In this document: piece after piece, positions 1,140 through 23,400 of the stretch
Layout: each line of letters opens with the position of its first letter
How positions within the stretch are numbered: the first letter of the stretch is position 1
Origin: a virus
DNA length: 29,199 bases
Virus record (IMG/VR): IMGVR_UViG_3300028591_004246
Coordinates: 64,001 to 93,199 of that record
Reading direction: 5' to 3' (one strand)
Position numbers and translations under genes: made by a program
The notes under the pieces: generated by a model
Databases searched by the model: none
The model's input: only the letters and a program-made list of their open reading frames with translations
Told to the model about the DNA's origin: nothing

Positions 1140-1154
1140 AAGGAGGTTTTTAAA

Positions 1155-7059: not shown

Positions 7060-7068
7060 GGAGATAAA

Positions 7069-7383
7069 ATGAATGAATATTGATTTGTACATGAGCCTAA
7101 ACCTGAATGGGTGCGGGAATTGCAAGAACAAGGAATTTTAACTGGCCCTGAATATGCTGCTGTAACTATAGTATATACTTTTTATACAGGAGAACATAAA
7201 GATTATCTTTATGATGGAGATGCTTTAATTAAAACTACAGAAGGTATTATTGCTCCAATTTCTTATCAGTGGATAGACAGAGCTAAAAGAAAAAATCCAG
7301 ATATGAAATTATATTCACCAGTTGAAGGACAAATGGAAGAAATTCTTGCATCTATTTATTCCAATTTGGGCAAAAATAAATAA
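7069..7383 (+). CDS. hypothetical protein (104 aa)
   Basis: ATG at 7069 with SD GGAG 7-8 nt upstream. The frame is open through a TGA at 7081-7083 (Trp) and joins the track ORF 7111..7383. No recognisable motif. Confidence 0.5.
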
Positions 7384-7445
7384 ATTGTAAATTTTTAATT
7401 ATATTATAAATAAGTGAGCACAAAATCTAGTATAGGGAGGAATAG

Positions 7446-7649
7446 ATGATTACACTTTATAGTACAGGTTGTCCTCGTTGTAAAGTTTTAGAGCAAAAAC
7501 TTCAACAAAAAAATATTGATTTTAATATAGAATCAAATATGCAAACTATTATTGATATGGGTTTTAGAGCAGCTCCTATTCTTAAAGTAGATGAAAACTT
7601 TTATGATTTTGGAGGAGCTATTAAGTGGGTAAATTCATATGAAGATTAA
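7446..7649 (+). CDS. nrdH: glutaredoxin-like / NrdH-type redoxin
   Basis: 67-aa ORF with a CPRC redox motif near the N-terminus and an overall thioredoxin-fold pattern. SD GGGAGG lies upstream. It sits immediately upstream of nrdD and overlaps it by 11 nt. Confidence 0.6.
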   Translation: MITLYSTGCPRCKVLEQKLQQKNIDFNIESNMQTIIDMGFRAAPILKVDENFYDFGGAIKWVNSYED

Positions 7650-9603
7650 TATGAAATTAAACCGCAATTTTACAACTCAATATAATAAATTGCAAGGTGA
7701 ATTTGGAACAGAAATTGCAGAATTAAATGGTTTTGGAGATGAGCAACTTTCTTATACGGATTTTATTTCTAATTTTATAGATAAACAAACAGTAGCAGAT
7801 GCTTCTATTGATAGTAATTCAAATGTTAGTCATAAAGATATTGTAACTTTAGAAAGAGAAATGCCTAAACCCCACTCTAAACTTTTAGCTTTTAATAAAA
7901 TTTATTATGAAATTCAGAAGAAATATGGATTTAAAACAGCTAATGAATGGTTGCGGGCAGAGTGGATAGGTCAGCTTTATATGCACGACGCTCCATCATC
8001 AACATTTAGACACTATTGTTTTGCTTATGACTTAAAAGATTTAGCAGAAAGAGGGTTATACTTCTTTCCTGAAAGAAATGCTAAACCAGCAGAGCATTAT
8101 ACAACTTTTATTGATTTTGTAAAAGAGTTTGTTAATTATACTTGTAATCGATCTTCAGGTGCAGTAGGGTTGCCAAATCTTCTTCCATATATGTTTTACT
8201 TCTGGAAAAAAGATATAGATGACGATTATCTAGGCATACGAACTTCAGGCAATGAACGATATTATGCTGATCAGGGATTCCAACGATTTATTTACGCGGT
8301 AAACCAAAACATCATGAGAGATGGTTCACAATCAGCTTTCACAAATACATCAATTTTTGATCGGCCATATTTTGAAGCTCTTTTTGGTGGATCGACATTC
8401 CCTGATGGAACCTTTATGATTGATTATGAAGAAGAAATAATTGAATTTCAAAAATGGTATATGGAAGTTATGTCTGAAATTCGATCAACTAATATGTTAA
8501 CATTCCCAGTAAACACAATATCTCTTCTTCGTAAAGAAGGAAAATATGATTTAAACACTCTTGATGGTTTCGTTGATCAAAATTTTGCAGAGTGGGCTAT
8601 TAAACATAATATGAAATGGTCAGATTCAAATATTTTTCAAGATACATCTGTTAATAGTTTATCAAATTGTTGTCGATTAAAAAGTGATATTGCTGAGCTT
8701 GGCTATTTTAATAGCGTCGGGGGATCAGCACTTAAAGTCGGATCTGTTAAAGTATCGACAATAAATCTTGCTCGTTTAGCATTAGATACAGATTCAGAAG
8801 AAGAATATTTACAAGAACTTGAATATAGATTAATTTTAAATCTTAAAGCTCTTGATTGTGTTCGTCATATAATTCAAAGAAATGTTGACAAGGGTTTGCT
8901 TCCTAATTTTTCATATGGCTTAGTTGATTTCCCGCATCTTTATAATACAATTGGCTTCCTTGGTGTTTATGAAACAATGAAAAAATTTGGATACACTAAA
9001 GTAGATACGTTAGGTAATACTTATTATACTGATAAAGCTTCTTTGTTCGGTCAGAAAATTTTTGAAACTATTCGTGAAGTATCTAATCAATTTATTAAAG
9101 ATAATAATTTAGATTATAAGATTAATTGTGAACAAATTCCTGGTGAAAATGCAGCAGATAAATTAATGAAAAAAGATAAATTCTTTTATCCAAATGCCAA
9201 TATTTATGATTTACCATTATATGGTAATCAATTTATTCCTTTAGGAATTCAAACTACTGGGCAAGAAAGAGTTAGAATTCAAGCGCAATTTGATGCTTTC
9301 TGTAATGGAGGATCAATACTTCATTATAATATTGATGCACCTTTTACAAGTTACGAAAAAGCTTTATATATGACTAATTATATTGCTCAAAAAGGTGTTA
9401 CATATTTTGCATTTAATACTCGAATTTCTACATGTGAAGATAATCATGCATTTTATGGCAACGGGCTTTGTCCAGTCTGTGGTAAACCAAAAGATGCAGA
9501 GTTTACTAGAATTGTTGGCTTCTATACAAAAATTAACAGTTGGAGCCAGACTCGCAAAGATGAGTTTAAACTTCGTAAATGGGATAACATCAATGATAAT
9601 TAA
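7639..9603 (+). CDS. nrdD: anaerobic ribonucleoside-triphosphate reductase (class III), NrdD
   Basis: 654-aa intact ORF. It carries the conserved GGSALKVGSVKVSTINLARLAL segment, a C-terminal Zn ribbon (C..C...CPVCG), and a glycyl-radical motif TRIVGFYTK near the C-terminus. No TGA. Confidence 0.85.
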   Translation: MKINMKLNRNFTTQYNKLQGEFGTEIAELNGFGDEQLSYTDFISNFIDKQTVADASIDSNSNVSHKDIVTLEREMPKPHSKLLAFNKIYYEIQKKYGFKTANEWLRAEWIGQLYMHDAPSSTFRHYCFAYDLKDLAERGLYFFPERNAKPAEHYTTFIDFVKEFVNYTCNRSSGAVGLPNLLPYMFYFWKKDIDDDYLGIRTSGNERYYADQGFQRFIYAVNQNIMRDGSQSAFTNTSIFDRPYFEALFGGSTFPDGTFMIDYEEEIIEFQKWYMEVMSEIRSTNMLTFPVNTISLLRKEGKYDLNTLDGFVDQNFAEWAIKHNMKWSDSNIFQDTSVNSLSNCCRLKSDIAELGYFNSVGGSALKVGSVKVSTINLARLALDTDSEEEYLQELEYRLILNLKALDCVRHIIQRNVDKGLLPNFSYGLVDFPHLYNTIGFLGVYETMKKFGYTKVDTLGNTYYTDKASLFGQKIFETIREVSNQFIKDNNLDYKINCEQIPGENAADKLMKKDKFFYPNANIYDLPLYGNQFIPLGIQTTGQERVRIQAQFDAFCNGGSILHYNIDAPFTSYEKALYMTNYIAQKGVTYFAFNTRISTCEDNHAFYGNGLCPVCGKPKDAEFTRIVGFYTKINSWSQTRKDEFKLRKWDNINDN

Positions 9604-10057
9604 AGGTATTATTTCTGAAGATTTTATTAATTATAAAAAACCTTGTATGGTTATAGAATTTCCAGTTTGTAAAAATTTTAAATGCGGGCAAGCCTTATGT
9701 CAAAACGATCCATTAATAAAATATCCAGATATAGAAATTAGTTATTCTCAAATTGTTAAAAAATACATGGAAAATGATATTACACAAGCTATTGTTTTTA
9801 TGGGGCTAGAACCTTTTGATAGTCCGCATGATTTATTTCTTTTAATTGAAGAATTTAGAAAATATACAATGGATGATATTGTAATTTACACTGGATATTA
9901 CTGGAATGAAATTTCTACATATGTAGCTATGCTAGGGGATTATAAAAATATTATTATTAAATACGGTAGATACATTCCCAATCAAACTCCACACTATGAT
10001 GAAGTTTTAGGTGTAAAATTGGTAAGTGATAATCAATATGCTGCAAAGATCAGTTAG
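9593..10057 (+). CDS. nrdG: anaerobic RNR activating protein (radical-SAM), NrdG-like
   Basis: ATG at 9593 overlaps the nrdD stop (ATGATAATTAA). The 154-aa product has segments matching NrdG (AIVFMGLEPF ~ GISLSGGDPL; DIVIYTGYYWNEI ~ DIWVWTGYKLDEL). The Cys cluster is PCMVIEFPVCKNFKCGQALC. The track ORF 9383..10057 is a spurious N-terminal extension that overlaps nrdD. Confidence 0.7.
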   Translation: MIIKGIISEDFINYKKPCMVIEFPVCKNFKCGQALCQNDPLIKYPDIEISYSQIVKKYMENDITQAIVFMGLEPFDSPHDLFLLIEEFRKYTMDDIVIYTGYYWNEISTYVAMLGDYKNIIIKYGRYIPNQTPHYDEVLGVKLVSDNQYAAKIS

Positions 10058-10065
10058 GAATAAAT

Positions 10066-10308
10066 ATGTATTATAATAATTATTTTAACAACAACAATAA
10101 TACTACTATTTTAATTATAATTATAGCTTGTGCTCTTATAGTTGGTTTAAGTTTTCTTTTATTTGCTTTTGGCTATTGGCTAATAACTTTAATAGCTGCT
10201 CAAATTTTTAATTTTATAATTCCATTTGAATGGACATATGCTTTAGGAGCTTATGCAATATTAATAATTATTAAATTATTTATGTTACCAAGTGGTCAAT
10301 CTAAATAA
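10066..10308 (+). CDS. small hydrophobic membrane protein (80 aa, 2 predicted TM helices)
   Basis: Asn-rich N-terminus followed by two long hydrophobic stretches. It is the last gene before a rho-independent terminator. Confidence 0.5.
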   Translation: MYYNNYFNNNNNTTILIIIIACALIVGLSFLLFAFGYWLITLIAAQIFNFIIPFEWTYALGAYAILIIIKLFMLPSGQSK

Positions 10309-10313
10309 AAAAT

Positions 10314-10362
10314 GCCTCAACAAAAGAATAAAAAATTCTAATGTTGAGGCTTATTTTTTTTT
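10314..10362 (+). terminator. rho-independent terminator closing the pol/nrd operon
   Basis: Stem GCCTCAACA (10314-10322) pairs with TGTTGAGGC (10342-10350). It is followed by TTATTTTTTTTT. Confidence 0.75.
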
Positions 10363-10390
10363 GACATTTTATTTAATAATATAGTATAAT
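10361..10390 (+). promoter_or_regulatory. near-consensus sigma-70 promoter for the downstream small-ORF/dUTPase/RuvC/SPFH operon
   Basis: -35 TTGACA at 10361-10366, an 18-nt spacer, and -10 TATAAT at 10385-10390. It is followed by the SD AAAGGAG and the ATG at 10414. Confidence 0.6.
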
Positions 10391-10413
10391 ATAATAAAAC
10401 GAAAGGAGATTAT

Positions 10414-10812
10414 ATGGGAGATGTTTCTTTAGGTACTGTATATGATATTAATAAAACTGTATATAGTAATCAATCAGAAAAAATGCCAGAAGCTTTAGTT
10501 CAATCCATGTTAAAAAAAGTTTCAAGCTGGTTTAAAACTAAAGCTCTTTGTGAAGCACAATATTATATGTTTCTTTGTCGTGATCGTAATGATTATACAA
10601 TTTTTAATTTTATAAAAAATAATCCAGAAAAAGGAATCAAAGAATTAATTGAATTAATTCAATCTCGTGGAATTCTTAAAGATATTGTCTATAATGAAAA
10701 ATATAATTATTATGAATTTTGGATTAGTATAGATACAGAAGGATTTAGACCAGAAATGTATATGTATATTCTTTTTCCATGTAATGAATTTGTAATCGAG
10801 ATTGGAGATTAA
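10414..10812 (+). CDS. hypothetical protein (132 aa)
   Basis: Intact ORF with a good SD. No recognisable motif. Confidence 0.5.
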   Translation: MGDVSLGTVYDINKTVYSNQSEKMPEALVQSMLKKVSSWFKTKALCEAQYYMFLCRDRNDYTIFNFIKNNPEKGIKELIELIQSRGILKDIVYNEKYNYYEFWISIDTEGFRPEMYMYILFPCNEFVIEIGD

Positions 10813-10814
10813 AT

Positions 10815-11075
10815 ATGGATATGATGATTGCTGCTCGTCCCGCAGCTAATATTACAATTATGATTACGCAAGAAACTCCAGAATATGATGCTCAAATGGT
10901 AGCTTCTCAAACTGTTTTTGAAAAAGATTTGGAAAAAACAATTAGAAAATATTTAAATGATTATAAAATTGAAACAATATCTATATACGGTCCTTTAGAT
11001 TATATTGAACATTTAGCTGATACTCTTGGTAAAACTTTTAATCGTGAAATTACTATAATTGGAGCTGGTGTATAA
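10815..11075 (+). CDS. hypothetical protein (86 aa)
   Basis: Intact ORF that starts 3 nt after the previous stop. Its TAATG overlaps the start of the next ORF. Confidence 0.5.
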   Translation: MDMMIAARPAANITIMITQETPEYDAQMVASQTVFEKDLEKTIRKYLNDYKIETISIYGPLDYIEHLADTLGKTFNREITIIGAGV

Positions 11076-11356
11076 TGATTAAATATCTTCTTAAAACAAC
11101 TGAAGAATATCGTCTTGAAACTGTAGAAGATGTAAAAACTTTTCATAAAAAACTTCAACAAGATGCTATAAATCAAGGATATACGCTAAGCTCTTTTGGA
11201 TATACGCAAAAGTCAACAACTGCTCGTGGAGAAATTATTGATGAATGGTGTGTTGTAAAAGTTATAAAAATATTCCAAAAAGATAAAGAACCAGAAAATG
11301 CACTTAATAAAATTACTTATGAAACTTTTAATAGAGAGGAGTTTAATGGAGATTAA
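11075..11356 (+). CDS. hypothetical protein (93 aa)
   Basis: Intact ORF. Its stop overlaps the dUTPase start region. Confidence 0.5.
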   Translation: MIKYLLKTTEEYRLETVEDVKTFHKKLQQDAINQGYTLSSFGYTQKSTTARGEIIDEWCVVKVIKIFQKDKEPENALNKITYETFNREEFNGD

Positions 11357-11768
11357 AATAAAATATGAACATGATGATGTCCCTCGATTAAATAAAATTG
11401 TTCAAGGAGATTGAATTGATTTAACTTTAGATGAAGATATTCAATTAGATAAAGGGCAATCAGGACTATTTTCTTTAGGAGTGTGTATTCAATTACCAAA
11501 AGGATATGAAGCAATTTTAGCTCCAAGAAGTTCAACATTTAAACGTTATCATTTACTTCAAACCAACTCAATTGGTGTTATTGATAATTCTTATTGTGGA
11601 AATAATGATATCTGGAAAGTTAGTTTTTATGCCACCGAAACTACTTTTGTTCCAAGAGGAACAAGAATTTGTCAATTTAGAATAATTAAAAATCAGCCTG
11701 AAATTAATTTTATAGAAGTTTCATCCCTTAATAATCAAGATAGAAATGGTTTTGGTTCAACAGGATAA
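11346..11768 (+). CDS. dut: dUTP diphosphatase (dUTPase)
   Basis: ATG at 11346 with SD AGAGGAG upstream. The 140-aa product has dUTPase motifs (GVIDNSYCGNND, RICQFR, C-terminal NGFGSTG). One in-frame TGA (GDW) is read as Trp. This merges the track ORF 11481..11768 with upstream sequence. Confidence 0.8.
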
Positions 11769-12247
11769 TGATTTTATCTTTAGATCAAGCATTAGTCACA
11801 ACAGGTTGAGCAATTTTTGATGAAAATAAATTAATAGCTTATGACAGTTTTACTATAAATGGAAAAGATTCTATTGAAAAAAGATTAGGATTTATTTTTC
11901 AAAGATTAACAGAATTATATAATAAATATGAGTTTGATTATTTAGTATTTGAAGATATTCAACAGCAACAAAATCCAAGTACATATAAAAAACTTGCATA
12001 TGTTCAAGCGATTATTTTACTTTGATGTTTTTATAATCAAATTAATTTTACAGTATTAAGTCCTTCTCAATGAAGAAAAATATTAGGTGGTAATTTTGGT
12101 AGAAAAAGAGAAGAACAAAAACAAAAAGCTATTGATTTAGTAAAACAATATTATAATATAAATGTTGATTCAGATATAGCAGATGCAATTTGTATTGGTA
12201 AAGCTTATTTAGATAGTCATAAGCAATTAGGATTTGGGGTGATTTAA
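11768..12247 (+). CDS. RuvC-like Holliday junction resolvase
   Basis: ATG overlaps the dut stop (TAATG). The 159-aa product has ILSLDQALVTTGWAIFD at the N-terminus and SDIADAICIG near the C-terminus (the RuvC D-x-ADA-x-AI motif). Three in-frame TGA codons are read as Trp. Confidence 0.7.
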
Positions 12248-12248
12248 A

Positions 12249-13184
12249 TTGTTTCTCTTTATTATAACAATTATACTAGCACTAGCTCTTCTATTCTCTG
12301 CGGGCTATTGTAGAAAAACTAAAGATAATACCTATGATAATTATTCAAAAGCTACAGGACCTCTTATTGCTGCCGCAATTATAGTAGCATTAGTTGGAAT
12401 TCTTTTATCTTGTGTTTATACTCAAGATGTAGGTGAAGTTGTTATCCTTCGTAATTTTGGAGGTCAATTAGCTGGAACAACTGAAGAAGCAGGACTTCAT
12501 CTAAAAGCTCCTTGGCAAGATACAATTGATTATGATATCCGCAATAATATCATTAATCTTTATAGAGATGATGAATACTCTTATGATAACGGAACAGCTC
12601 ATGGAGCAGAAGTAACTGTTTATGATAAATCTGGTGCTCAAGCAAATGTTGATATACAAGTAATTTATTCTCTTGATCCAAATGCGGCAATTGATCTTTA
12701 TACTAAATACCAAGAGCAAGAGAATTTCATTCAAATTTCAGCAGTAAATAATGTGCGGGATGCGGCAAGAAATGTATCAGGACAATTTACTACAATTGAA
12801 ATGTTAAATGCCCGTGAAAACTATGCCAAAGCAATTTATGACAAACTTTCAACAGATTGGGATAAAATAGGATTACATGTTGAAGAAGTTAATGTACAGG
12901 ATATCAGATACAATCAAGAAATTGTCGATGCCTATAATACTGCTCAAAAAACAGAAATCTCCAAAGTTGAAGCATTAAATCAGCAAGAAACTGAAAAAGT
13001 TAAAATGGATACTGAAGTCATGAAAGCTCAAAAAGAAGCAGAAGCTAATAAAATTAGAAGTGATTCTCTAACTCCTGAAATTCTTCAACAAGAATATATT
13101 GAAGCTCTTAAAAATGGTAACGCTATTTATGTAGTTCCTGAAGGTTCTACTCCAATAGTCAATCTAGATAAGAAAGCAGAATAA
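12249..13184 (+). CDS. SPFH/band-7 (stomatin/HflK/C-like) membrane protein
   Basis: TTG start. It has an N-terminal TM segment followed by GEVVILRNFGGQLAGTTEEAGLHLKAPWQDTIDYDIR, which is typical of the SPFH domain, then a coiled-coil Lys/Glu-rich C-terminal half. 311 aa. Confidence 0.65.
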   Translation: MFLFIITIILALALLFSAGYCRKTKDNTYDNYSKATGPLIAAAIIVALVGILLSCVYTQDVGEVVILRNFGGQLAGTTEEAGLHLKAPWQDTIDYDIRNNIINLYRDDEYSYDNGTAHGAEVTVYDKSGAQANVDIQVIYSLDPNAAIDLYTKYQEQENFIQISAVNNVRDAARNVSGQFTTIEMLNARENYAKAIYDKLSTDWDKIGLHVEEVNVQDIRYNQEIVDAYNTAQKTEISKVEALNQQETEKVKMDTEVMKAQKEAEANKIRSDSLTPEILQQEYIEALKNGNAIYVVPEGSTPIVNLDKKAE

Positions 13185-13186
13185 AA

Positions 13187-13894
13187 TTGAAATTTTTAAA
13201 TATTCTTTTTATTGCAATTCTAAGTTTAAGTATTTTAGGATGTAATAAACCACAAACCCAAGAGAAGAAAGATGAAGAAGTAATAACTGTGCGGGACAAG
13301 GAAGCAACTCAGGATAGAAGTCAAGCCGGTTCTAATGCAGTCGATGTCCCGCACCTTCTCGCCACTTTAAATAATGAAAGATTTACTTATTCTTATTCAC
13401 CTATTGGGTATGACAATATTGATATTGAAATGACTAAAGATTTAAATTGTATAAAACAAATTACAAAATGCTTTGGTTATAATTTTGATATACAAAAATT
13501 TTATGATGATTATTTTGATAGTATAAATCTTCATACAGATACAACTCCAGTTATAGGAAATTTCGGACCTTCTGGATATGCAGAATTTACAACAAAATAT
13601 TATTTAGATAATAATATTCCAATAAGTATAGAAGAAATTTCTGGTATTGATTTTGAAACTTTTACAAATATTGTTAATCATAATTGGCCTATCATGGTAT
13701 GGTATACTTTAGATGATAGTCAATTTGGTGGAGAAATACAATATTGGCCTTTCCATTATCCAATGATTGCTACTAAAGTAGATAAAGAAAACGTTTATTT
13801 ATTTGATGCAATTAATGGTGAAAAAGTAGAATCTATTTCTGAATTCCAAAGAATTTGGGAGAAATGTGGGAATTATGGTTTAATCTTCTATTAA
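13187..13894 (+). CDS. lipoprotein with C39-like (papain-fold) cysteine peptidase-like domain
   Basis: Signal peptide with lipobox ILGC. The C-terminal region has Cys ... HYPMIATKVDKENVYLFDAING, which resembles the Cys/His/Asp arrangement of C39-like peptidase domains. 235 aa. Confidence 0.5.
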   Translation: MKFLNILFIAILSLSILGCNKPQTQEKKDEEVITVRDKEATQDRSQAGSNAVDVPHLLATLNNERFTYSYSPIGYDNIDIEMTKDLNCIKQITKCFGYNFDIQKFYDDYFDSINLHTDTTPVIGNFGPSGYAEFTTKYYLDNNIPISIEEISGIDFETFTNIVNHNWPIMVWYTLDDSQFGGEIQYWPFHYPMIATKVDKENVYLFDAINGEKVESISEFQRIWEKCGNYGLIFY

Positions 13895-13902
13895 AATAGA
13901 CA

Positions 13903-13948
13903 TAAAAAAATAAGGGGTACTCTTAATTGAGTACCCCTCTTTTTTTTT
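13903..13948. terminator. bidirectional rho-independent terminator between convergent early (+) and late (-) modules
   Basis: An A-run at 13903-13911 is followed by the stem AGGGGTACTC (13913-13922), the loop TTAATT, the stem GAGTACCCCT (13929-13938) and a T-run at 13939-13948. It is flanked by U-tracts on both strands. Confidence 0.75.
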
Positions 13949-15509
13949 ACCATTTATTATCATTTAAAGAGCATTGTAAGGCTTTAACAGATTCTCTACC
14001 AAAATATCCATCTACATCAATATCGTAACCTTTATTAACTAACCATTGCTGGAGAGCTCTTGAGGTCCCAGGGCCTCATTGACCATCAACTTCCGCACCA
14101 ACTTTACTTTGAATAGCTTCAACTAATTGAGAACCAGTTCCGCTATCATATTCAACATTATACATTCCTCAATGGTAATCTTTATTTCCAAGCCATTGAC
14201 CGCTAATAACACCATCTTCATAAGTACCTAATGTGTGCTGTAAATCAATAATAGTGTTTCATCCACCAATACCATCAATTTCAAGTTTTCCACCATCGCG
14301 ATTATTTTTTGGATCAGTTGAAACATCTGGTGTGAAATTTCCACTATCAGAATTACTATAATGAGGTCTAATAACATAGGCTACGTTACCCATATTACGA
14401 TATTTTTCTTGTACGGCATTACTAACATTACCTTCAATTGTTGGGAATCCAGAGCCATCAAAACTTCCTGTTGCAAATCCAATATGGTCAGTAGCTCCAT
14501 CTCAATCCCAATTAAAGATAACAATGTCTCCATACTGTACATTATATTTATCTACAGCATAATTTCTTGCGCCATTATTTAAAGCTAAATCTGTATTATA
14601 ACTTGGAAAACCTTTAACTACAACTCCTGCTTGCTCTAGACACCAACTTACAAACATGCAGCACCATCAAATTTCAACAGAAGGTCCAGCAAGCCAATCT
14701 TCATCTCATTTATCAGCTAATCAACGGCCATATTTTGAGCCTGGATTTGGATCATCAGGAGCATAATACCCTAATTCACCATAAGCAACGTCAATAACAC
14801 TTTTAGCTGTTCCACTCATTTGTTTACTTTCTTCTTCTTCTTTCTTTTCCTCTATTGGTTCATCAGTTTGAATAGTTTGTCCAGCAGCTATTCTTGCGGG
14901 ATAATCAATACAACATCAATCACAGTCATGATAACCACTAACATCATCAAACACGATATGACCATCAGACAATCTGATTCCGCCTTGCTGTCACATTCCG
15001 ATATCTCCAGCTTCGATTGGTCAAGAAGCTCTTCATCAAGCAATTCAATTAGCATAATCACGAAGTTCATCTGCATACATATTGTTTAATCATGCATTTC
15101 CACCAGTATAAAGTCCTGCATAATATCCTCTATTACGAAGAGTATCGCAAAAAACTTTAATAACATCAGTTAAAGCACGTGCTGATAATTGAAATTGTCT
15201 TGGATCTTCAACATCTGTATAACAAGGTAAATCAAATTTATATCCATCAAGCAAATCTGCAAAATGATTAGCATCTTTTCTTGAATTCTCTGTATCTGTA
15301 GTAACTGTATAATAATATGCTCCAACATGGAGTCCAGCAGCTACAGCTTTTTTATAATTATTTTCAAATTGTCCGTCTTTGTAACGTCCTAAATTTGTTT
15401 CATTTCCACCAGCTTTAATAATAACGCCTCAGAGTCCTCTTTGACGTTTTCAAGCTGCTAAATCAATATCTCCATCTCAATGAGAGATATCAAGAACAAG
15501 TTCTTTCAT
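13947..15509 (-). CDS. modular endolysin: GH25 muramidase + CHAP peptidase/amidase + PG_binding_1 cell-wall-binding domain
   Basis: ATG at 15509 with SD AAGAGGTG, and a TAA stop. Reading TGA as Trp gives a continuous 520-aa protein (about 17 TGA). The N-terminus MKELVLDISHWDGDIDLAAWK...IIKAGG matches the GH25 signature, with TGA at the conserved Trp. The middle region (...WCCMFVSWCLEQAG ... TDHIGFATG) is CHAP-like with Cys/His. The C-terminus VDGQWGPGTSRALQQWLVNKGYDIDVDGYFGRESVKALQ matches PG_binding_1. Confidence 0.85.
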
Positions 15510-15530: not shown

Positions 15531-15577
15531 TAAAAAAAGAGTCCCATATTTCAGGGACTCTTTTTATTTTATTTTTT
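15531..15577. terminator. stem-loop terminator between holin and endolysin genes (U-tracts on both strands)
   Basis: AAAAAAA, then stem AAGAGTCCC (15537-15545), loop ATATTTCA, stem GGGACTCTT (15554-15562), then TTTTATTTTATTTTTTT. Confidence 0.55.
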
Positions 15578-15859
15578 TAGATGAGCAGGCTGCTTTTTTA
15601 ATTCACGCATTAGTATGTCTGCTTGAAGAGCGGGTTGAGTAAAGCTGTTATTCTTCCATCAAGCAATAATAGAAGCTAAAATAACAGCAACACCTGAAGC
15701 AATTTCATAAATATTGTTTTCATCAATATCAATAGGAGTTCACCCAAGTAAAGCGCAAAAAGCATTAACTAATGCGATAAATAGAACGATGGTTCTAGCA
15801 ATAGTCCCAGGTTCAATTGAAAGCAATCCATCTAAATTAATTGTTTTTGCTTCAGCCAT
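15569..15859 (-). CDS. holin (phiLC3/LL-H-type, Phage_holin_1-like)
   Basis: ATG at 15859 with SD GAAGGTG. The 96-aa product has central hydrophobic segments (IVLFIALVNAFCALLGW, GVAVILASIIAWW) and a charged C-terminus (MRELKKQPAHLKK). It contains 2 TGA-Trp codons and lies immediately upstream of the endolysin. Confidence 0.7.
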
Positions 15860-15884
15860 TTAAAACACCTTCTTAATTAACTAA

Positions 15885-16685
15885 TTATTCTCCAGAACTG
15901 CTTCCACCAGCAACGAGTTCATCAATCTCTGCATTAGTAGCAAATGTAATATCTGCATCTAAGACATATGGAGAAAGATCAACGAAGCCAGGAAGTACAT
16001 CGAACTTATATGCAGGAGACTGACCAGTTGTATCAGTATCAACAACAACTACATTGGTTCCAGCAGGATAGGTCTTAGTTGTTCCACTAGCATATTCAAC
16101 GAAATCGCTAGTAATAGTAAAGGAGTCAGTAACATTATAAACGTTACCAAGGACACCAACAGCTAGAGTTGGTAGACTTGCAAATGCTACAGAACCAGCA
16201 GGTTTATAAACAGTAGCAATCTGAGCAGCTACAGTGTCATCAACATAAGTTTTAACAGCTGCACCTGTTGGAAGTTTTTCGTCATTAGTAAGTGTAGTCT
16301 CAACGTCTTTATAAGCAGCAGCGTCAAGACCATGAACGGCTACATCTGAACCATTAACAGCAACAGTACCATTTGTAGCACCTTCGGCAACTGTAACATT
16401 AACTTTCTTGGTTGTGCTATCAGGAGTTAAATCTGTAGCATTAACTTGGACACCAAGAACTGGAATTGTTACGTCAACCTTTTTGTTAGCATCAGGAGTT
16501 AAATCAGCACTATTAACTTGAACACCAAGAATTGGAACTTCAACATCAACAGCACCATTAGAATCCTGTGTTAGAGCTGTACCGTTACGTTTAACAGTTT
16601 TTACTGCACCAGCAGGAGCAAAAGTTTCTGTAGCTTTCTGCCATAAACGTTGAATACCAGCCCAATCAACGAGTTTCATCGCCAT
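15885..16685 (-). CDS. hypothetical virion/structural protein with internal tandem 24-aa repeat (Ala/Val/Thr/Gly-rich, acidic)
   Basis: Intact 266-aa ORF (ATG at 16685, SD AAAGGGTG, TAA stop). The local GC content is clearly higher than in the flanks. Its Trp codons are TGG, with no TGA. A 72-nt unit is tandemly duplicated. Confidence 0.6.
   Translation of the reverse strand: MAMKLVDWAGIQRLWQKATETFAPAGAVKTVKRNGTALTQDSNGAVDVEVPILGVQVNSADLTPDANKKVDVTIPVLGVQVNATDLTPDSTTKKVNVTVAEGATNGTVAVNGSDVAVHGLDAAAYKDVETTLTNDEKLPTGAAVKTYVDDTVAAQIATVYKPAGSVAFASLPTLAVGVLGNVYNVTDSFTITSDFVEYASGTTKTYPAGTNVVVVDTDTTGQSPAYKFDVLPGFVDLSPYVLDADITFATNAEIDELVAGGSSSGE
16422..16565 (-). repeat. 2 x 72-bp imperfect tandem repeat inside the 266-aa gene
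   Basis: AGGAGTTAAATC...TTAGCATC at 16422-16493 matches AGGAGTTAAATC...TTAGAATC at 16494-16565. It encodes the duplicated ...VDVxxPxLGVQVNxxDLTPD... segment. Confidence 0.7.
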
Positions 16686-16702
16686 ATAATCACCCTTTCT
16701 TT

Positions 16703-17329
16703 CTAATTACCTTGTATAATTTCTTCTATTTCATCATCTGTAACAGCTCTAAATCCAAAGTCCTCTAATGTTTGATTCCCTGTAAGTTCAACTCCATTAA
16801 TAGAAGGTTTATTTGTAACATAAAGATAATCTGTTACGCCTTCGAGTTCAACTTCTTCTAATCATTTTGTAATATCTTCTACACTTTGATTCATAACTAT
16901 TGCAGCTTGTGAAAACAAATTATAATCATCAGAAGCAATAAATTTATCTAAATCTATTGGGTCTGCGGAAATAGTAACTTGAAAATCATCTGTTCCAATT
17001 AAACTATTATTATCAACTTTTTCAATTTTACAAATAATATGTCCTTCTTGAATCATTTTTGATGGTCAAGCTATTTCTCAGACTGGATTAATTTTTAAAG
17101 TTTTATCTCCAACTTCAATACAATTAAATACATTATAGCCTTGAATATCTAATTCTTGATGATGCCATTTTAAATAAATTTTAGTAGAAGAAGTAAAAAC
17201 AGAAGCAGCTTCTTGAGAAAAAATTACTTTTAATTTTTTTCCATTAATATCATTGCCACTAAATATCATATCTTCTATTGGTTGATAAAAAGATTTTATT
17301 TCTAAAATACAAGAAGTTAATGATAACAT
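16703..17329 (-). CDS. hypothetical protein (208 aa; 3 TGA-Trp codons)
   Basis: Track ORFs 17078..17335 and 16862..17056 share one frame and are joined by in-frame TGA codons (17078-80, 17066-68, 16862-64). The frame continues to a TAG at 16703-16705. A likely ATG is at 17329 (GAGAGGTG upstream), or alternatively GTG at 17335. Confidence 0.5.
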
Positions 17330-17376
17330 ATTCACCTCTCCCTCTAATCAATTCTCACTAAAATTATTATAAAATA

Positions 17377-17405
17377 GGGCATCTTACTTTTTGTAAAATG
17401 CCCTA
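17377..17405. terminator. weak hairpin downstream of giant gene
   Basis: AGGGCAT (17377-17383) pairs with ATGCCCT (17399-17405) around a 15-nt loop. There is only a short flanking A/T tract. Confidence 0.3.
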
Positions 17406-17414: not shown

Positions 17415-20400
17415 TTAATTTTGTTCTGGAATATAGAAGTAGCCCTTGTCTGTATTATTATTAACAGAACCATCTTTACGATAAGCAATATAAATAGTAT
17501 GCGGGATTCCTTCCAAATTCTCAAACTTTGCTTCTTTATAATTCATATTAGAGTTACCATAAGTATTATAATTATAACTACTAGTAGTTGGTTGAGCATC
17601 TATCTTCATAATCAAATAGTCATAATTAGATTCTCCATATGAACAATATTTAATAATAAATGTATCATATCCATCAATATTAATCATACAAGTATCAGTA
17701 GTGTTATGTTGATTTGTATGTTTACTACTATAATATACTGTATGACCATCTACTTGAGTTCCACTATCAGCTCATTCATCATTGTTAAGGTCTATAGTAT
17801 ATTCTTGTTGAATTAATATTACTCTTAATATCTTTGTAGCAGTTATACTATTATCATAAATACTAGTAGCTGTAATAATTAAAGTATCTCCATCAGAAGC
17901 ATTTACTAATTTAACTAGACCATTAGTATCAATAGTAGCATTACCTTCAATAGACCAAGTCACTCCACGATATTGCGGGTCAACATCAATACTATCATCT
18001 GGGTCTATATAGACAGGAGTTAATTGAGCAACTCTATCATAAACATCTTGTTTATAACAATTGATAGTTTCAATATTGGAATCTAATCTTATAGATACTA
18101 ATTCTTTATCAGAGCCATCTTTAAAAGCGCTTAAAACATTTTTCCATTGATAAGCTGCTTTATATGTTGGGAATAAACTTAATGGAATATAAATAGAGGT
18201 TACACCAGTAGAAGAAAGATATGTATTAGTATCTGAATTAAAGTTTTTAAATACTCCACGAGCATAAACTGTTCTAAGATTTGTCGCATATCTAAATATT
18301 TCTGATGTAGAATTAACTGCTGAAAAATCTCAACCAGAAATATCTATTGTATTTAATTTATCACAATAATAAAATAATCCATATAAATCTGTGACTGTTG
18401 AGAATGTTCATTTAGACATATCGAGTTCAGTAATTGCTCTATCATATCAAAACATTTGTCTAATAGTAGTAAGATATGGAGTATGCATTTCTCCAAAATG
18501 AATACTTGTTAAACTAGGATTATTTGCAAACATAGCTTGCATTGTAGTGACATTTGTTACATCCAATAGATCAAAGTCAAAAGTTTTAATTCTTGTTTCA
18601 TTAAAAGCATGACTTAAACTAGTAATTTGTGAGGTTTCACTATTAATAATATCAAAAGAGCCAATCTGATAACGACCACTTAAAGTAATATAAGTTCCAC
18701 TAAAATTATTAAATGTAATATTTAATGTACCAGCGCTAATATCATTCATAGTAGAAATAATGGTACTAATTCTACCGCAATCACTACAATTAATAAATTC
18801 TGTATTGGTAATTTTACTATCATAACGAAACATGTTAGATACATTTGCGGAAGATGGTATATTTGGAATAATAACACTCGTTAAATTTGAACAATTTGCC
18901 ATTGAATATTGTAAATTATTAATTTTATCAACAGATAATTTTGTAGCATCAAGAGTTGTCATTTTACCTTCATAGAAAGCATAATTAAAATTACAATCTG
19001 CTTGTTCTCGCATATTTCATTTTGAAGTATCTAAAATAGTTAAATAAGGACACATATGGAAACAATATGTATAATTAGTTACATTTGAAAAATCCATATT
19101 AATATCTTTAAGATTATGAATTCCAGTTCCCGCATAAGCATAATTTAATGAATTAGGTTTATTTCTTTCATGAATAACAATTTCTCCATTATTACTTTCA
19201 ATTCAATCAATCATATTAATATTTTTAATTCTAATAGCACTTCTAATAAATTCATTAAAATTATTATTAATAGTACCTTCAACAATTAAAGTAATAAAAC
19301 TATTACTATTATTAGCTCCATTACAAATTCATCTAATTAAACTATTTCCACCTGTTCAACCATTACATTCAGAAAAATAAATATTTTGAAGAGCAGAACA
19401 ACCTTTTAAACAATCAGTAGCATAGCCACTACTATAATCATAAAGTTGCTTAGCATTCCTAAATTCAATTGTGTCAAGAGTAATACAATTTTCAAACATA
19501 TGAGTCATATGTAAATAATAAGCTCGATTAGCAACTACTAAATTTGGAAATTCTATATAATCAATAGACGTACATTCTGCAAACATATAATCATAATAAA
19601 TATCTGTTCCTTTATTAATATTCATATTATAATTTTCAGGGAAAATAATCGTTTCAAGTAAACCACATTGATAAAACATATATCTTGAATTTTGAATTTT
19701 AGTAAAATTAGAATAACCAATATCTACAGTTATTAAATTAATACATCCAGAAAACATATACTGAGTATTATTTACATTTCCAACATTTCAAGTAGTCATA
19801 TTTATTTCTGTAATAAATACTTCCATATTATTTACAGTAGTTCCAGAATCTTCCATAAATTTAATTTTAGTTATTGCTCTACAATTTTGAAACATGTAAG
19901 ACATATTAGTAATAGGAGAAATATCAGCATCATTTGTAGTTGTTGTTAATCTAAATCAATCAATATAATCTAATTCATAACAATCTTGGAACCAACCTTG
20001 CATACTAGTAATTCCAATAAATTTAGAATATTTTAAATCAATAGATTTTAAAGCTCAACATCCAGCAAATAAATATTGAGCGCCAGAATCACTTAATTCA
20101 ACAAAATTTACACTACTTAAAGTTAAATTTGTTAAAGAATGACAATTAATAAACATTCTGCTAATATTAGTAGCTCTACATGGATTAGTAAATAAATAAT
20201 TAATATTTAAAGTTTCAAGAGCATAACAATTTCCAAACATATATTCTAAGCTTCTATCACCAGCTCATGGATAACTATTATTATTTTGTCCAACTCTTGT
20301 AAATGAAACATTATGTAAATCTAAAGATTTTAAAGCTCTGCAATGATTAAACATACCTTGACAATACATAACATTAGAAAATAATCAGCCATTATCTCCT

Positions 20401-23400
20401 TGATGTGTATTAATTTCTTCAAGAGCATAACAATTTTGTAACATACAGGTTGTACTATAAGCACCAATCATATTAAAGTGTTGATTTAAAGTTTTTAAAG
20501 TATAACAGTGTTGAAACATATATTGGAAATTAGTACATTTTTGAGAAATAAAACTATCAGGAAAAGTTAATTCTTCAAGAGCATGGCATCCTTCAAACAT
20601 CCCGTCAACTCTTTGAAGATTTGCTCCTCCAAAGGTTTCTGGAATTCTAATTGATTGAAGAGCATAACATCATTGAAACATTCTTTCTGCACTAGTATTA
20701 TTTATCATTGTAAAAGTATCTGGAAGATATAATTCTTCAAGAGACTCACAATAACAAAACATATACGTAGCATTATCTCCACTTCATAAAGAAGTATTAA
20801 AATTAGGAATCAAGAGATGCTGTAATGATTTACAATTATAAAACATTTGATAAAAATCAGAACATTTAATAGTATTAAAACTTGTTAAATCTAACTCTTG
20901 TAAAGATTGACAATCATAAAACATTTCATACATTGTAGTAACATTTTCTGTTGAAAAATTATTAAAATCTAAAGTTTCAAGTTTAGTACATGCATAAAAC
21001 ATTTCATTAAAAGTAGTTACTAAATCTGTATTTAATGGAGTTAAATCAAAAGTTACTAAAGAAGAACAATAACAAAACATATTAGCACAATTAGTTAAAC
21101 TGTGTCAATATTCCATACCACTAATATCTAAAGTAGTTAAATTAATACAATCATAAAATAAATTAGATACATTTTTAATACTTTGTCCTTGAGCCCCTCA
21201 TGTAGACATATCAATAGTAGTACCTCTATATCCTCTAAATAAATTAGCAATACTAGTACAAGTATTAATATTTCACTCTTCTAGATGAAGATCAACACTA
21301 CTACCACAATAAGTTCCGCCTATTGATTTTCCTGCTAAATAGAAAGTATTATTTCTATAAATAACTCTTTGTAATGCTGAGCATCCTCAAAATTGAGCCT
21401 GAATATTTTTAACATGTTCAGTCCAAAAACTAGAAAGATTAATAGTTCGAATAGTATTAGCATTTAAAAACATTACTGCTCAATTAATAGAAGTAGTTGT
21501 TTCTTGAATATTTCATTGAGACAAATCTACACTAGTTCCCTTATAGCCACTAAACATTGCTACAAAACTTGTTTGCTGTGAAACATCTCAATGACCAATG
21601 TTTAAAGGAATTTTAATATTATAAAACATTTGCCCAACTGCTGTATAATATGTATATCTCATACTTCCATTAGTACCAGTATCAATTCATCTTGTAGAAT
21701 AGTTTTCATTACTTCAATAATCAATTGAATTAGCCTTCATTATAAATGAATTTGTTTCAAAAGTTTTAAGTTTAGAACAATTATAAAACATAGCTTCAAA
21801 ATTTACAACTTTAGAAGTATTAAATGTTTGAATTTTTAAAGTAATTAAATTAGTACATTCAGCAAACATTTCTGCCATACTTGTTCCTTGAGAAGTATCT
21901 CAATTAGAAAATATTAATTCCGTACCTTTATAACCATAAAACATTCTAATAAAATATTTCATTAAAGAGGTATTAAAAAGAGTCAAATCATGAATTTGTC
22001 CTATACTTCCATTGAACATGTCTCTAACATTTACACTAGAATGGAACTTTCATTCATTTGTTATATACAAATCCTGTAAATTAGAGGTTCCATAAAACAT
22101 TTCTGACATATTGGTACAAAATTCAATATTAAAGTCTGAAAGAGTAATTGTAATTGCCTTACAGTTATAAAACATTTGTGACATATTAATACAAGATTCG
22201 GTATTAAAATCTAAAAGAGTAACTGTAGTTGCTTTACATTCTCTAAACATCTGCGACATATTGGTACAAACTTCTGTATTAAAATTTGAAAGTGCGATTG
22301 TAGTTAATACAACATTTGTATTATAAAACATTTGATACATTGTTGTTACATGAGAAACATCTCAAGTAGAAATATTAATTTCTGGAAGAAAACATCCACC
22401 AAACATATAAGTCATATCTGTAACTGAAGAAGTATCCCAAGTATTAAATAAAATTCAAGGAGCATGTACATCTGCAAAAGTATTAATCATATTCTGTACA
22501 GAAGAAATATCTCAAGTAGATAAATCTAATCCATTAGTAAAAGTAGACAGCCTAAACATAGCTCTGAAAGAAGTAATATTAGAAACATTTCAATTTGCAA
22601 CGTTTATATTTGTAAAAGTTGAACGATACAACATTGCTCTTAAATTAGTAATATTACTAAAATCTAAATTTTCAGCTTCTAATGTTCCAATAGTAGAATC
22701 ATAAAAGAAACTAAAATCACTATCTCAACTAGGAATATTTGTTAAACTAGTAATATCTCAATCTGTAATATTAATTAAATTTGCAGTACATCCTCTAAAA
22801 ATAAATTGCATATTAGTACAATTACTCATATCTCAGGTTCTTAAATCTAATTCAAGACTAGATGTTCCCATTTCTCTAAACATACCACTAGCATTTAAAA
22901 CTTCACTAGTATCAAGAATATCTAATCCTTCAATAGACTGCAAACCTTTTAATTTATAAAACATATTCATACTATTAGCATTTAAAATAATAGGTGCTGC
23001 AACTTCAAAAGTAATAGTAATTGTTCCAGTATTATTATCTCAATTAGCTACTACTGGAGAACCTTGAGAACCAATAGCAATACCAGATTTTTGAATACCA
23101 TTTTCAAATATTATATGTTTAATTTTAGTATCTTCAAAATTACCATCTGTAACATTACTTCCATTTGCCATACGTTTAATAGTATAAGAAAATTCACCAC
23201 CAGAAATTAATCTAGAATTATATTTTTCTGGAAGAAGCGGAAAATCATAATATGTTTCTACTTTAATAGGAATATCTTCATTTCAAACAGTATACATATT
23301 TTGAACACCAGTATACATATCTTTAGGAAATTGCATTGGATATAAAACTATATTATAATCTAAGTAAGTAGGAGAGACATAGAAAAACGCTCTATCCTCA

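What the first reader, a model, noticed from the sequence alone, without database searches (positions are those of the whole stretch)
15885..16685. Compositional island: a GC-rich, TGA-free 266-aa tandem-repeat protein gene sits between the TGA-rich late genes
The 266-aa gene is visibly richer in G and C than its flanks. It uses only TGG for Trp and has no TGA, yet lies between TGA-containing genes (the 208-aa ORF and the holin). The product is Ala/Val/Thr/Gly-rich and acidic, and has a duplicated 24-aa unit (...VDVEVPILGVQVNSADLTPD / VDVTIPVLGVQVNATDLTPD...). Inference: this could be a recent horizontal acquisition from a standard-code, higher-GC donor, for example a host-derived or other-phage fiber or decoration module. 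Alternatively the gene must be expressed before suppressor activity is established. Its location next to the giant LRR gene and the lysis cassette suggests it is part of the host-recognition apparatus.
Basis: partly seen in the sequence, partly recalled or inferred. Interest (0 to 1): 0.55.

Follow-up and report, generated by a model that had tools for sequence, protein, structure and literature searches.

The report
Resident phage fibre gene, not foreign DNA
The GC-rich, TGA-free 266-codon gene is an ordinary, long-resident fibre protein gene of a TGA-recoded phage, and it looks GC-rich mainly because its protein is full of alanine, valine, threonine and glycine, not because the DNA was recently imported.

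Summary
Window 15885-16685 (- strand) encodes a 266-aa acidic protein rich in Ala, Val, Thr and Gly. It has two 24/25-aa repeat units, is the GC maximum of the window (0.40 vs 0.28) and has 0 TGA and 2 TGG codons.

The horizontal-transfer reading fails.
- The excess GC sits at codon positions 1 and 2 (0.60/0.45). GC3 is 0.16, close to the rest of the genome.
- Amino-acid composition alone predicts GC 0.372.
- In 32 homologous loci from phages of 25-61% GC, GC1+2 of this gene stays near 0.50. GC3 tracks the resident genome (r = 0.95).
- Diverged relatives (73-82% aa identity) keep the gene in the same place (giant LRR gene, 208-aa gene, fibre, SPP1 holin, endolysin) with the same composition. 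One of them uses TGA at a conserved Trp.

TGA-freeness rests on two Trp codons (P = 0.04).

A small, stable, gene-specific codon bias remains (T3/C3/G3 and TGG preferred). It suggests selection on translation rather than foreign origin.

The protein belongs to a large uncharacterised fibre family (phrog_38190). Members carry tail-fibre modules and sit next to baseplate genes. It is most likely a short trimeric tail fibre with a C-terminal knob. Interest is low.

The parts
15885..16685 (-). 266-aa fibre protein gene (ATG 16685, TAA 15887-15885). GC 0.402; GC1/2/3 = 0.603/0.446/0.157; 0 TGA, 2 TGG.
   Evidence: phrog_38190 E = 8.7e-25; 947 homologs at E <= 0.001
16691..16698 (-). Shine-Dalgarno-like AAAGGGTG, 5 nt upstream of the ATG. 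The intergenic spacer to the 208-aa gene's TAG stop is 17 nt.
   Evidence: read directly from the sequence
16611..16685 (-). N-terminal segment, aa 1-25 (predicted helix 8-21), holding both Trp codons (TGG at codons 8 and 15). The motif (Y/L)(V/L)D..G...(F/L)W.K recurs at the N-termini of many family members. Inferred to be the attachment end.
16479..16550 (-). Repeat unit 1, aa 46-69: VDVEVPILGVQVNSADLTPDANKK
16404..16478 (-). Repeat unit 2, aa 70-94: VDVTIPVLGVQVNATDLTPDSTTKK. It shares 17 of 24 residues with unit 1. Relatives carry 1 to 7 such units.
16332..16403 (-). Degenerate beta-strand segment, aa 95-118 (VNVTVAEGATNGTVAVNGSDVAVH), which continues the shaft. Predicted strands at 99-101, 107-110 and 113-116.
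16209..16265 (-). Predicted neck helix, aa 141-159
15951..16208 (-). Conserved C-terminal globular beta domain, aa 160-245 (YKPAGSV...GNVYNVTD...YKFDVLPGFVDLS.Y). Mean pLDDT per 10-residue block is 92-95 over about aa 161-230. It holds almost all of the invariant and nearly invariant family columns.
16703..17329 (-). Upstream operon partner: 208-aa gene of unknown function (3 TGA, 1 TGG). Its C-terminus matches phrog_24985. It is conserved next to the fibre gene in lineage relatives.
15569..15859 (-). Downstream SPP1-type holin gene (2 TGA, 1 TGG)
13947..15509 (-). Endolysin with GH25, CHAP and PG-binding domains (17 TGA, 7 TGG). GC 0.354, also explained by amino-acid composition.
17375..17405 (-). 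Terminator-like hairpin between the giant LRR gene and the 208-aa gene. Probable upstream boundary of the 208-aa / fibre / holin / endolysin unit.
13912..13939 (.). Terminator-like hairpin scored on both strands, after the endolysin, at the point where the two convergent gene blocks meet

Best explanation
The gene encodes a short, probably trimeric, virion fibre protein. The layout is an N-terminal attachment helix, a shaft of about 24-aa beta repeats, a neck helix and a conserved C-terminal knob. It is a long-standing resident of this TGA-recoded, Firmicutes-type phage lineage. It is transcribed with the 208-aa gene, the holin and the endolysin as a late unit.

Its GC richness is a by-product of its amino-acid composition. 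Ala, Val, Thr, Gly, Asp and Pro codons are G/C-rich at positions 1 and 2, and they stand out in a 28% GC genome. The lack of TGA mostly reflects having only two Trp codons.

A small gene-specific codon bias remains: T- and C-ending codons, AAG/GAG/CAG and TGG are preferred. It is kept in diverged orthologs. It is best read as selection on translation of a well-expressed structural protein, not as a trace of import.

Shown: composition, synteny, family membership and repeat architecture. Inferred: trimeric state, tail rather than head location, receptor binding and the expression level.
For: Composition:
- GC1/2/3 = 0.603/0.446/0.157, against 0.06-0.19 GC3 in the other real genes.
- Simulated back-translation with the genome's codon usage gives GC 0.372 +/- 0.006 against the observed 0.404. 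Against a background of 0.280, about 74% of the excess is due to amino acids.
- Across 32 homolog loci, GC1+2 of the gene is 0.50 +/- 0.02 whatever the genome. GC3 follows the flanking genes (r = 0.95). The gene is an 'island' in the AT-rich phages L004 and L060 (+0.11 to +0.13) but not in phages of about 55% GC.

Residency:
- Orthologs in L074/L075 and L076 keep the order giant LRR, 208 aa, fibre, holin.
- The fibre is the best conserved gene of the block: 81-82% aa identity, against 62-72% for the 208-aa gene and the holin and 64-73% for the C-terminus of the giant gene; order.
- Four-fold third positions are only 64-71% identical, so the synonymous divergence is substantial.
- The orthologs still have GC 0.39-0.42 and GC3 0.16-0.20, and the same T3/C3/G3 bias.
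- The L076 ortholog uses TGA at the conserved Trp.

Fibre identity:
- 77 of 78 family members hit phrog_38190. The functionally annotated PHROGs they also hit are all tail fibre, tail or virion structural families.
- P0088 joins the same C-terminal domain to Pfam Phage_fiber_2 and to a phi29-type head-fibre segment.
- The top BFVD fold matches are named 'L-shaped tail fiber protein' and 'Tail fiber protein' (E = 1.7e-5 and 8e-5, probability 1.00).
- In Faecalibacterium phages Roos and Taranis the homolog directly follows the baseplate J, P2-I-like and putative tail-fibre genes.
- Repeat copy number varies from 1 to 7 among relatives, as expected for a fibre shaft.
- The AF2 model has a confident C-terminal beta domain.

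Operon: no terminator-like site between the 208-aa gene, the fibre and the holin; spacers are 17 and 25 nt.
Against: - A residual synonymous deviation is statistically real: GC3 0.158 against 0.095 expected, P about 0.001. The Fisher tests for T3, C3 and G3 give P = 0.0006-0.0016. The expression-linked reading of it is untested because the host and its tRNA set are unknown. Enrichment of AAG/GAG/CAG is not, from my own knowledge of low-GC Firmicutes, the usual sign of translational selection.
- Tail versus head fibre is not resolved.
- The model is a monomer with pTM 0.44.
Confidence: 0.8

Rival explanations
1. Recent horizontal acquisition of a fibre or decoration module from a standard-code, higher-GC donor (host or another phage). 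On this view the gene is not yet ameliorated and has not yet picked up TGA codons.
For: - The gene is the GC maximum of the window.
- GC3 and G/C-ending two-fold codons are modestly but significantly above expectation.
- Many family members live in phages of 54-61% GC.
- Fibre genes are, from general knowledge, frequent targets of mosaic exchange.
Against: - GC3 is only 0.157, and 74% of the surplus GC is explained by amino-acid content.
- Homologs in high-GC phages have GC3 of 0.49-0.96 (mostly 0.62-0.78), so a recent import would be obvious.
- Orthologs in relatives whose synonymous sites have diverged substantially occupy the same slot with the same composition and the same codon bias.
- The gene is more conserved than its neighbours rather than discordant with them.
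- One ortholog already carries TGA.
- The closest relatives of the C-terminal domain include another AT-rich phage (L060: GC 0.28, 63% identity).
Confidence: 0.05
2. TGA is avoided on purpose, so that the fibre protein can be translated without the suppressor system. That would allow synthesis earlier than, or independently of, the other late proteins, or at a higher yield because no ribosomes are lost to RF2 termination.
For: - Pooled over three diverged orthologs, the fibre gene has 1 TGA and 7 TGG. Its immediate neighbours have 33 TGA and 6 TGG (Fisher P = 2e-4).
- Trp codons in the neighbouring genes do switch between TGA and TGG at this level of divergence.
- The gene has its own Shine-Dalgarno site.
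- Its other synonymous choices are also gene-specific and conserved.
Against: - There are only 2-3 Trp codons per gene, all within the first 20 codons. The orthologs are not independent samples.
- The L076 ortholog has TGA at the first conserved Trp, so independence from the suppressor is not required.
- The gene shares a transcription unit with TGA-rich genes.
- Borges et al. (bioRxiv 10.1101/2021.08.26.457843) report that only a few gene families in recoded phages significantly prefer the recoded codon. Late genes with few or no recoded codons are therefore not unusual.
Confidence: 0.12
3. The protein is a head fibre or capsid decoration protein rather than a tail fibre.
For: - One family member (P0088) matches part of the Pfam phi29 head-fibre model.
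- Two weaker BFVD matches are named 'Head fiber protein' and one 'Dec protein'.
- The gene is separated from the giant LRR gene by a terminator-like site and is not embedded in a recognisable baseplate cluster in this window.
Against: - The query itself has no PF11133 match.
- The P0088 match covers only profile positions 210-260 of 277 in the Phage_head_fibr model.
- The strongest fold matches and all functionally annotated PHROG co-hits are tail fibre, tail or virion structural families.
- In Roos and Taranis the homolog follows the baseplate and tail-fibre genes.
Confidence: 0.12

Closest known systems
PHROG family phrog_38190 (function unknown), including the orf24 protein of Faecalibacterium phage Roos (XAI97454.1) and AUV56868.1 of phage FP_Taranis
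   Same: The HMM match has E = 8.7e-25 over aa 78-241. Identity is 42-44% over aa 78-260. The proteins share the YKPAGSV...GNVYNVTD...YKFDVL.GFVDLS.Y C-terminal domain. The genes sit at the distal end of the tail module.
   Different: Those phages have about 54-56% GC and use the standard code, and the annotated baseplate J and sheath-initiator genes point to contractile tails. Their proteins are longer (331-341 aa) and have different N-terminal parts. No member has been characterised experimentally, as far as the records show.
Modular phage tail fibre proteins with the Pfam Phage_fiber_2 repeat (PF03406) and tail-fibre PHROGs (9729, 32680, 7389, 295, 381, 454)
   Same: Family members combine the same C-terminal domain with these modules. 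They have an elongated repeat shaft with variable copy number. BFVD fold matches go to proteins named tail fibre.
   Different: The window protein itself has no Pfam match. Its 24-aa VPVLGVQVNG.DLTPD repeat is not PF03406. No receptor, trimer state or virion location is known.
phi29 gp8.5 head fibre (Pfam PF11133)
   Same: A short fibre with an N-terminal base and an elongated stalk. One family member matches profile positions 210-260 of 277 in the model.
   Different: The query has no match. The C-terminal domain is unrelated by sequence and is not detectably similar by fold to any PDB entry.
Stop-codon-recoded (code 4, TGA to Trp) gut phages with standard-code replication genes and recoded structural and lysis genes (Borges et al., bioRxiv 10.1101/2021.08.26.457843)
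   Same: - Late - strand genes have 83 TGA and 21 TGG; + strand replication genes have 5 TGA and 47 TGG.
- The genome is AT-rich.
- The lysis genes are heavily recoded.
- TGA aligns with conserved Trp residues of a GH25 lysozyme (together).
   Different: No suppressor tRNA lies in this 29-kb window. Clade membership (for example Agate) was not tested. The nearest cultured polymerase relatives are SPbeta-like Bacillus phages and Enterococcus phages of about 134-142 kb, at 35-37% identity.

Membership tests
Recently acquired foreign DNA (compositional island) | Synonymous-site composition (GC3, codon usage) shifted towards a donor and away from the resident genome | tested here: not met
   GC3 is 0.157, against 0.06-0.19 in the other genes. 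74% of the excess GC is predicted from the amino-acid sequence. The residual is only +0.06 in GC3.
Recently acquired foreign DNA (compositional island) | Patchy presence: absent, or differently placed, in close relatives of the genome | tested here: not met
   Orthologs sit in the same slot in L004 (97.7% nt identity), in L074/L075 and in L076, which are diverged relatives. Only short contigs were available for the diverged relatives.
Recently acquired foreign DNA (compositional island) | Discordant divergence relative to flanking genes, or mobility signatures at the borders | tested here: not met
   The fibre gene is the most conserved gene of the block, not an outlier in the other direction. 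The intergenic spacers are 17 and 25 nt, leaving little room for mobility elements at the borders. No systematic repeat or integrase search was run.
phrog_38190 fibre-like family | Significant match to the family HMM and possession of the conserved C-terminal domain | tested here: met
   E = 8.7e-25. 77 of 78 aligned homologs also match. The invariant columns G164, N184 and F195 and 28 nearly invariant columns are present.
Phage tail fibre proteins | Elongated repeat-built shaft with a distal globular domain | tested here: met
   Two clear repeat units of about 24 aa plus degenerate beta units. Copy number is 1-7 in relatives. The C-terminal beta domain is confident, with mean pLDDT of 92-95 per 10-residue block.
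Phage tail fibre proteins | Gene located in or next to the tail or baseplate module | tested here: inconclusive
   Met for homologs in Roos and Taranis, where the gene follows baseplate J, the P2-I-like gene and the tail-fibre gene. In this window the neighbours are a giant LRR gene and the lysis cassette, and no baseplate genes are in view.
Phage tail fibre proteins | Homotrimer, present in virions, binds a host surface receptor | not testable with these tools
   Only monomer prediction was available. There are no proteomic or binding data.
phi29-type head fibre (PF11133) | Match to the Phage_head_fibr model | tested here: not met
   No Pfam family matched at E <= 1 for the 266-aa protein. 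Only P0088 among 78 relatives matches, and only over part of the model.
Code-4 recoded phage with late-gene recoding | In-frame TGA at conserved Trp positions in structural and lysis genes, with replication genes readable in the standard code | tested here: met
   Code 4 roughly doubles the length of long ORFs and restores a 520-aa endolysin and an ORF of more than 3,900 aa. Late genes have 83 TGA and 21 TGG; early genes have 5 and 47. The TGA-encoded Trp11 and the WIAWW motif align with Trp in lysozyme 4kru.
Code-4 recoded phage with late-gene recoding | Phage-encoded TGA suppressor tRNA or other code-change machinery | tested here: inconclusive
   No tRNA was found in the 29-kb window. The rest of the genome was not available. 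Borges et al. detected suppressor tRNAs in only 35% of code-4 genomes.

The most novel reading that the evidence does not exclude
Within a TGA-recoded phage, one late structural gene is kept under gene-specific selection for suppressor-independent, host-optimal codons. TGG is used at 7 of 8 Trp codons across orthologs, against about 15% in the neighbours, and there is a conserved shift towards T3, C3 and G3. If so, recoded phages would tune the choice between TGA and TGG gene by gene, to set the yield or timing of individual virion proteins. They would not simply switch the whole late block on.
Probability: 0.15. Interest if true: 0.45.

Novelty: new member of a known kind. Interest (0 to 1): 0.15.

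Why it matters
The main value is as a caution. In very AT-rich genomes, a gene for a protein rich in Ala, Gly, Val and Thr will always look like a GC island. Position-specific GC (GC3) and comparison with orthologs separate this from real foreign DNA.

The result also adds one more uncharacterised fibre family (phrog_38190, no Pfam model, no solved structure). The family is widespread in gut Firmicutes phages. It would be a reasonable target for structural work or receptor-binding studies.

The small, conserved TGG and codon bias offers a cheap, testable hint that codon choice inside recoded late operons may be tuned gene by gene.

Tried and rejected
- Tandem Repeats Finder on 15800-16800 found nothing, because two diverged copies fall below its score. 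The repeat was confirmed by direct alignment instead.
- Pfam gave no hit for the 266-aa or the 208-aa protein.
- A PDB sequence-profile search gave only chance LAMTOR2 hits at E = 0.13.
- The weak Pfam hits of the repeat region in P0005 and P0006 (Mur_ligase, DUF6305) were judged to be repeat or composition artefacts.
- An NCBIfam scan failed because one input contained TGA stops, and it was not repeated.
- Overlapping or antisense genes inside the locus were considered, because long stop-free frames appear at 15860-16426 (-) and 15963-16430 (+) under relaxed stop-codon sets. They were rejected as by-products of the GC-rich, stop-poor sequence. They have no standard-code support and no homologs were sought.
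- Promoter-like hits in the block are no more frequent than in shuffled sequence (17 against 16.6), so they were not used.

Full report
**What the window is**

Under the standard code the - strand from about 13,900 to the end of the window is broken into fragments. Reading TGA as sense restores four things: a 520-aa endolysin (13947-15509), a 96-aa holin (15569-15859), a 208-aa ORF (16703-17329) and an ORF of more than 3,900 aa that runs off the window (17415-29186+).

Pfam and PHROGs identify the endolysin as GH25 + CHAP + PG-binding and the holin as SPP1-type. Every Trp codon in the first 250 codons of the endolysin is TGA, and Trp11 and the WIAWW motif align with Trp residues of the Clostridium autolytic lysozyme 4kru. 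TGA therefore encodes Trp.

The + strand (69-13894) carries replication and nucleotide-metabolism genes. By my reading of the translations these are a primase, a DHH protein, PolIII-alpha, NrdD/NrdG, dUTPase and RuvC. They are almost free of TGA: 5 TGA against 47 TGG, compared with 83 against 21 on the late strand.

This is the layout described for code-4 recoded gut phages, with replication genes in the standard code and structural and lysis genes recoded (Borges et al., bioRxiv 10.1101/2021.08.26.457843). No tRNA lies in the window. The nearest cultured polymerase relatives are SPbeta-like Bacillus phages and Enterococcus phages of about 134-142 kb, at 35-37% identity. Together with the endolysin and holin types, this points to a Gram-positive, Firmicutes-type host (inference).

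**Checking the observation**

The ORF is exactly as described: ATG at 16685, TAA at 15887-15885, 266 aa. A Shine-Dalgarno-like AAAGGGTG lies 5 nt upstream.

- GC is 0.402, against 0.283 for the window. This is the highest 801-bp GC in the window (z = 3.4).
- The gene has 0 TGA and 2 TGG codons.
- The protein is rich in Val, Ala, Thr and Gly and is acidic.
- Units aa 46-69 and aa 70-94 share 17 of 24 residues.

Two qualifications apply. The raised GC spans the whole lysis block (endolysin 0.354, holin 0.34). And with two Trp codons and 80% TGA usage in the neighbours, the chance of seeing no TGA is 0.04.

**Why the gene is GC-rich**

GC by codon position is 0.603/0.446/0.157. GC3 is inside the range of the other genes (0.06-0.19).

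I back-translated the protein 4,000 times with the codon usage of all the other genes. This gives an expected GC of 0.372 +/- 0.006. Against a background of 0.280 and an observed 0.404, amino-acid content accounts for about three quarters of the excess. The same calculation explains the endolysin's raised GC almost completely (0.347 expected, 0.355 observed).

The family gives an independent test. In 32 loci from phages of 25-61% GC, GC1+2 of the homologous segment is 0.50 +/- 0.02. GC3 follows the flanking genes (r = 0.95). The gene exceeds its flanks by 0.11-0.13 in the AT-rich phages L004 and L060 and by about 0.01 in phages of about 55% GC. The 'island' is therefore a property of the protein seen against an AT-rich background.

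**Residency in the lineage**

L004 is the same phage at 97.7% nucleotide identity.

More useful are L074/L075 and L076. These are short metagenomic contigs carrying orthologs at 81-82% aa identity over the aligned part. All have the order giant LRR C-terminus, 208-aa gene, fibre, SPP1 holin, and then the endolysin start where the contig reaches that far.

- The fibre is the best conserved gene of the block. The 208-aa gene is at 63-64%, the holin at 62-72% and the giant gene's C-terminus at 64-73%.
- Four-fold third positions are only 64-71% identical. I estimate about 0.54 for two unrelated sequences with this T/A bias, so the synonymous divergence is substantial.
- The orthologs nevertheless have GC 0.39-0.42 and GC3 0.16-0.20.

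**The TGA question**

The L076 ortholog has TGA at the conserved first Trp (codon 9). The gene is therefore not required to be free of TGA.

The gene is 17 nt from a gene with three TGA codons and 25 nt from the holin. Terminator-like hairpins occur only before the 208-aa gene (17405-17375) and after the endolysin (13939-13912). It therefore belongs to the late transcription unit.

Borges et al. note that many genes in recoded phages carry at least one in-frame recoded stop codon, yet only a few gene families significantly prefer the recoded codon. A late gene with none is not unusual.

**What is left over**

A small synonymous deviation is real.

| Measure | Fibre gene | Elsewhere in the window |
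|---|---|---|
| GC3 | 0.158 | 0.095 expected (P about 0.001) |
| T3/(T3+A3), four-fold families | 0.73 | about 0.58 |
| C3, two-fold pyrimidine families | 0.23 | 0.08 |
| G3, Lys/Glu/Gln | 0.33 | 0.10 |

The orthologs keep the same pattern, with T3 0.78-0.82, C3 0.26-0.37 and G3 0.28-0.38, despite that synonymous divergence. Pooled Trp codons in the three orthologs are 1 TGA to 7 TGG, against 33 to 6 in their neighbours (Fisher P = 2e-4). These counts are not phylogenetically independent.

A bias that persists through this much synonymous change looks like an equilibrium held by selection on this gene. An import that was still ameliorating should instead decay towards the background. I read the bias as weak translational selection on a well-expressed structural gene. 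This step is an inference, because the host and its tRNAs are unknown and the G3 enrichment is not a classic Firmicutes signature.

NrdD, the SPFH gene and the holin show comparable GC3 residuals. The fibre gene is therefore not unique in this respect.

**What the protein is**

There is no Pfam match. It matches phrog_38190 (function unknown) with E = 8.7e-25. A search of 5.8 billion clustered proteins returned 947 relatives at E <= 0.001, nearly all without names.

The sequences show a modular family:
- an N-terminal motif, (Y/L)(V/L)D..G...(F/L)W.K;
- variable numbers of shaft repeats, either the 24-aa V.V.VPVLGVQVNG.DLTPD...KK unit (1-7 copies) or GKGLS.NDYT..EK.KL-type units;
- a neck;
- a strongly conserved C-terminal domain, YKPAGSV.F..LP...GNVYNVTD.FT.T.DFVEG....YPAGTNVV......YKFDVL.GFVDLS.Y.

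Of 78 aligned members, 77 hit phrog_38190. The functionally annotated PHROGs they also hit are all tail fibre, tail or virion structural families. One member fuses the domain to Pfam Phage_fiber_2 and to part of the phi29 head-fibre model.

In Faecalibacterium phages Roos and FP_Taranis the homolog directly follows the baseplate J, P2-I-like and putative tail-fibre genes. In other loci it lies within runs of fibre-like genes next to holins.

The AF2 model has mean pLDDT 77.6. It shows a helix at 8-21, beta units through about residue 116, a helix at 141-159 and a confident beta domain, with mean pLDDT of 92-95 per 10-residue block over about residues 161-230.

No PDB structure matches. The best BFVD matches are virome proteins named 'L-shaped tail fiber protein' and 'Tail fiber protein' (E = 1.7e-5 and 8e-5).

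**Most likely mechanism**

- Inferred: three chains assemble into a short fibre.
- Inferred: the N-terminal helix docks on another virion component. Candidates are the adjacent 208-aa protein or the giant LRR protein.
- Partly shown: the repeats form the shaft, whose length varies by repeat number among relatives.
- Inferred: the conserved C-terminal knob contacts the host cell surface.

A head-fibre location is a minority alternative.

**Verdict**

The fibre or host-recognition guess is reasonable.

The object is a new, uncharacterised member of a known kind (phage fibre proteins) in a known kind of genome (a code-4 recoded phage). Interest is low. The only mildly novel thread is the conserved TGG and codon bias inside a recoded late operon.

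Noticed in passing
window 17415-29186 (- strand, runs off the window end): A single code-4 ORF of more than 3,900 aa with 61 in-frame TGA codons. It is built of LRR-like repeats (my reading of the translation; no domain search was run) and has internal DNA repeats of 68-91% identity (most 68-80%). An Ig-like segment near its C-terminus also rests on my reading of the sequence. The gene is followed by a terminator-like hairpin. Its C-terminal 500 aa are 64-73% identical in the lineage relatives L074 and L075.
   Followed up: partly
window 11768-12247 (+), 11298-11768 (+), 7069-7383 (+): Recoding is not strictly limited to the late strand. The RuvC-like gene has 3 TGA and 0 TGG. The dUTPase-like ORF and the 104-aa ORF each have 1 TGA. 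All other + strand genes are TGA-free.
   Followed up: no
window 13900-13950: The sign of the GC skew flips here (the cumulative skew peaks near 13,700). A terminator-like hairpin scored on both strands (13912-13939) sits between the convergent early and late gene blocks. This may mark a replication terminus or origin.
   Followed up: no
window 16703-17329 (-) and 15885-15950 (-); L058 5653-5928: The 208-aa protein and the fibre protein end with a similar motif: ...AVTDDEIEEIIQ against ...ATNAEIDELVA. Many family members end in ITNAEIDTI. The 208-aa protein's NKPSINGVELTG segment resembles NQPQINSITLL in the small ORF just upstream of the fibre homolog in L058. The two genes may form a conserved pair.
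   Followed up: no
window 7639-9603 (+), 12249-13184 (+), 15569-15859 (-): The NrdD, SPFH-like and holin genes also have GC3 significantly above the value expected from genome codon usage (0.168 against 0.109, 0.135 against 0.094, 0.188 against 0.113). Mild heterogeneity in codon bias is therefore spread across the genome.
   Followed up: partly
window 15534-15565: A 12-bp-stem palindromic hairpin flanked by A and T runs lies in the 59-nt spacer between the holin and the endolysin. It could attenuate or stabilise the lysis transcript on either strand.
   Followed up: no
window 1140-1410 and 9293-9603: Start sites are ambiguous. Code 4 extends the DHH-protein ORF upstream through an in-frame TGA (590 against 541 codons, stop to stop). 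The NrdG-like ORF has a long upstream extension that overlaps the end of NrdD and contains one TGA.
   Followed up: no
L003 10386-12026 and 13276-14457; L002 15005-16066: In Faecalibacterium phages Taranis and Roos, a reverse transcriptase lies a few genes downstream of the fibre homolog. In Taranis a nearby protein is annotated as a DGR target. The fibre homolog itself is not annotated as the target.
   Followed up: no
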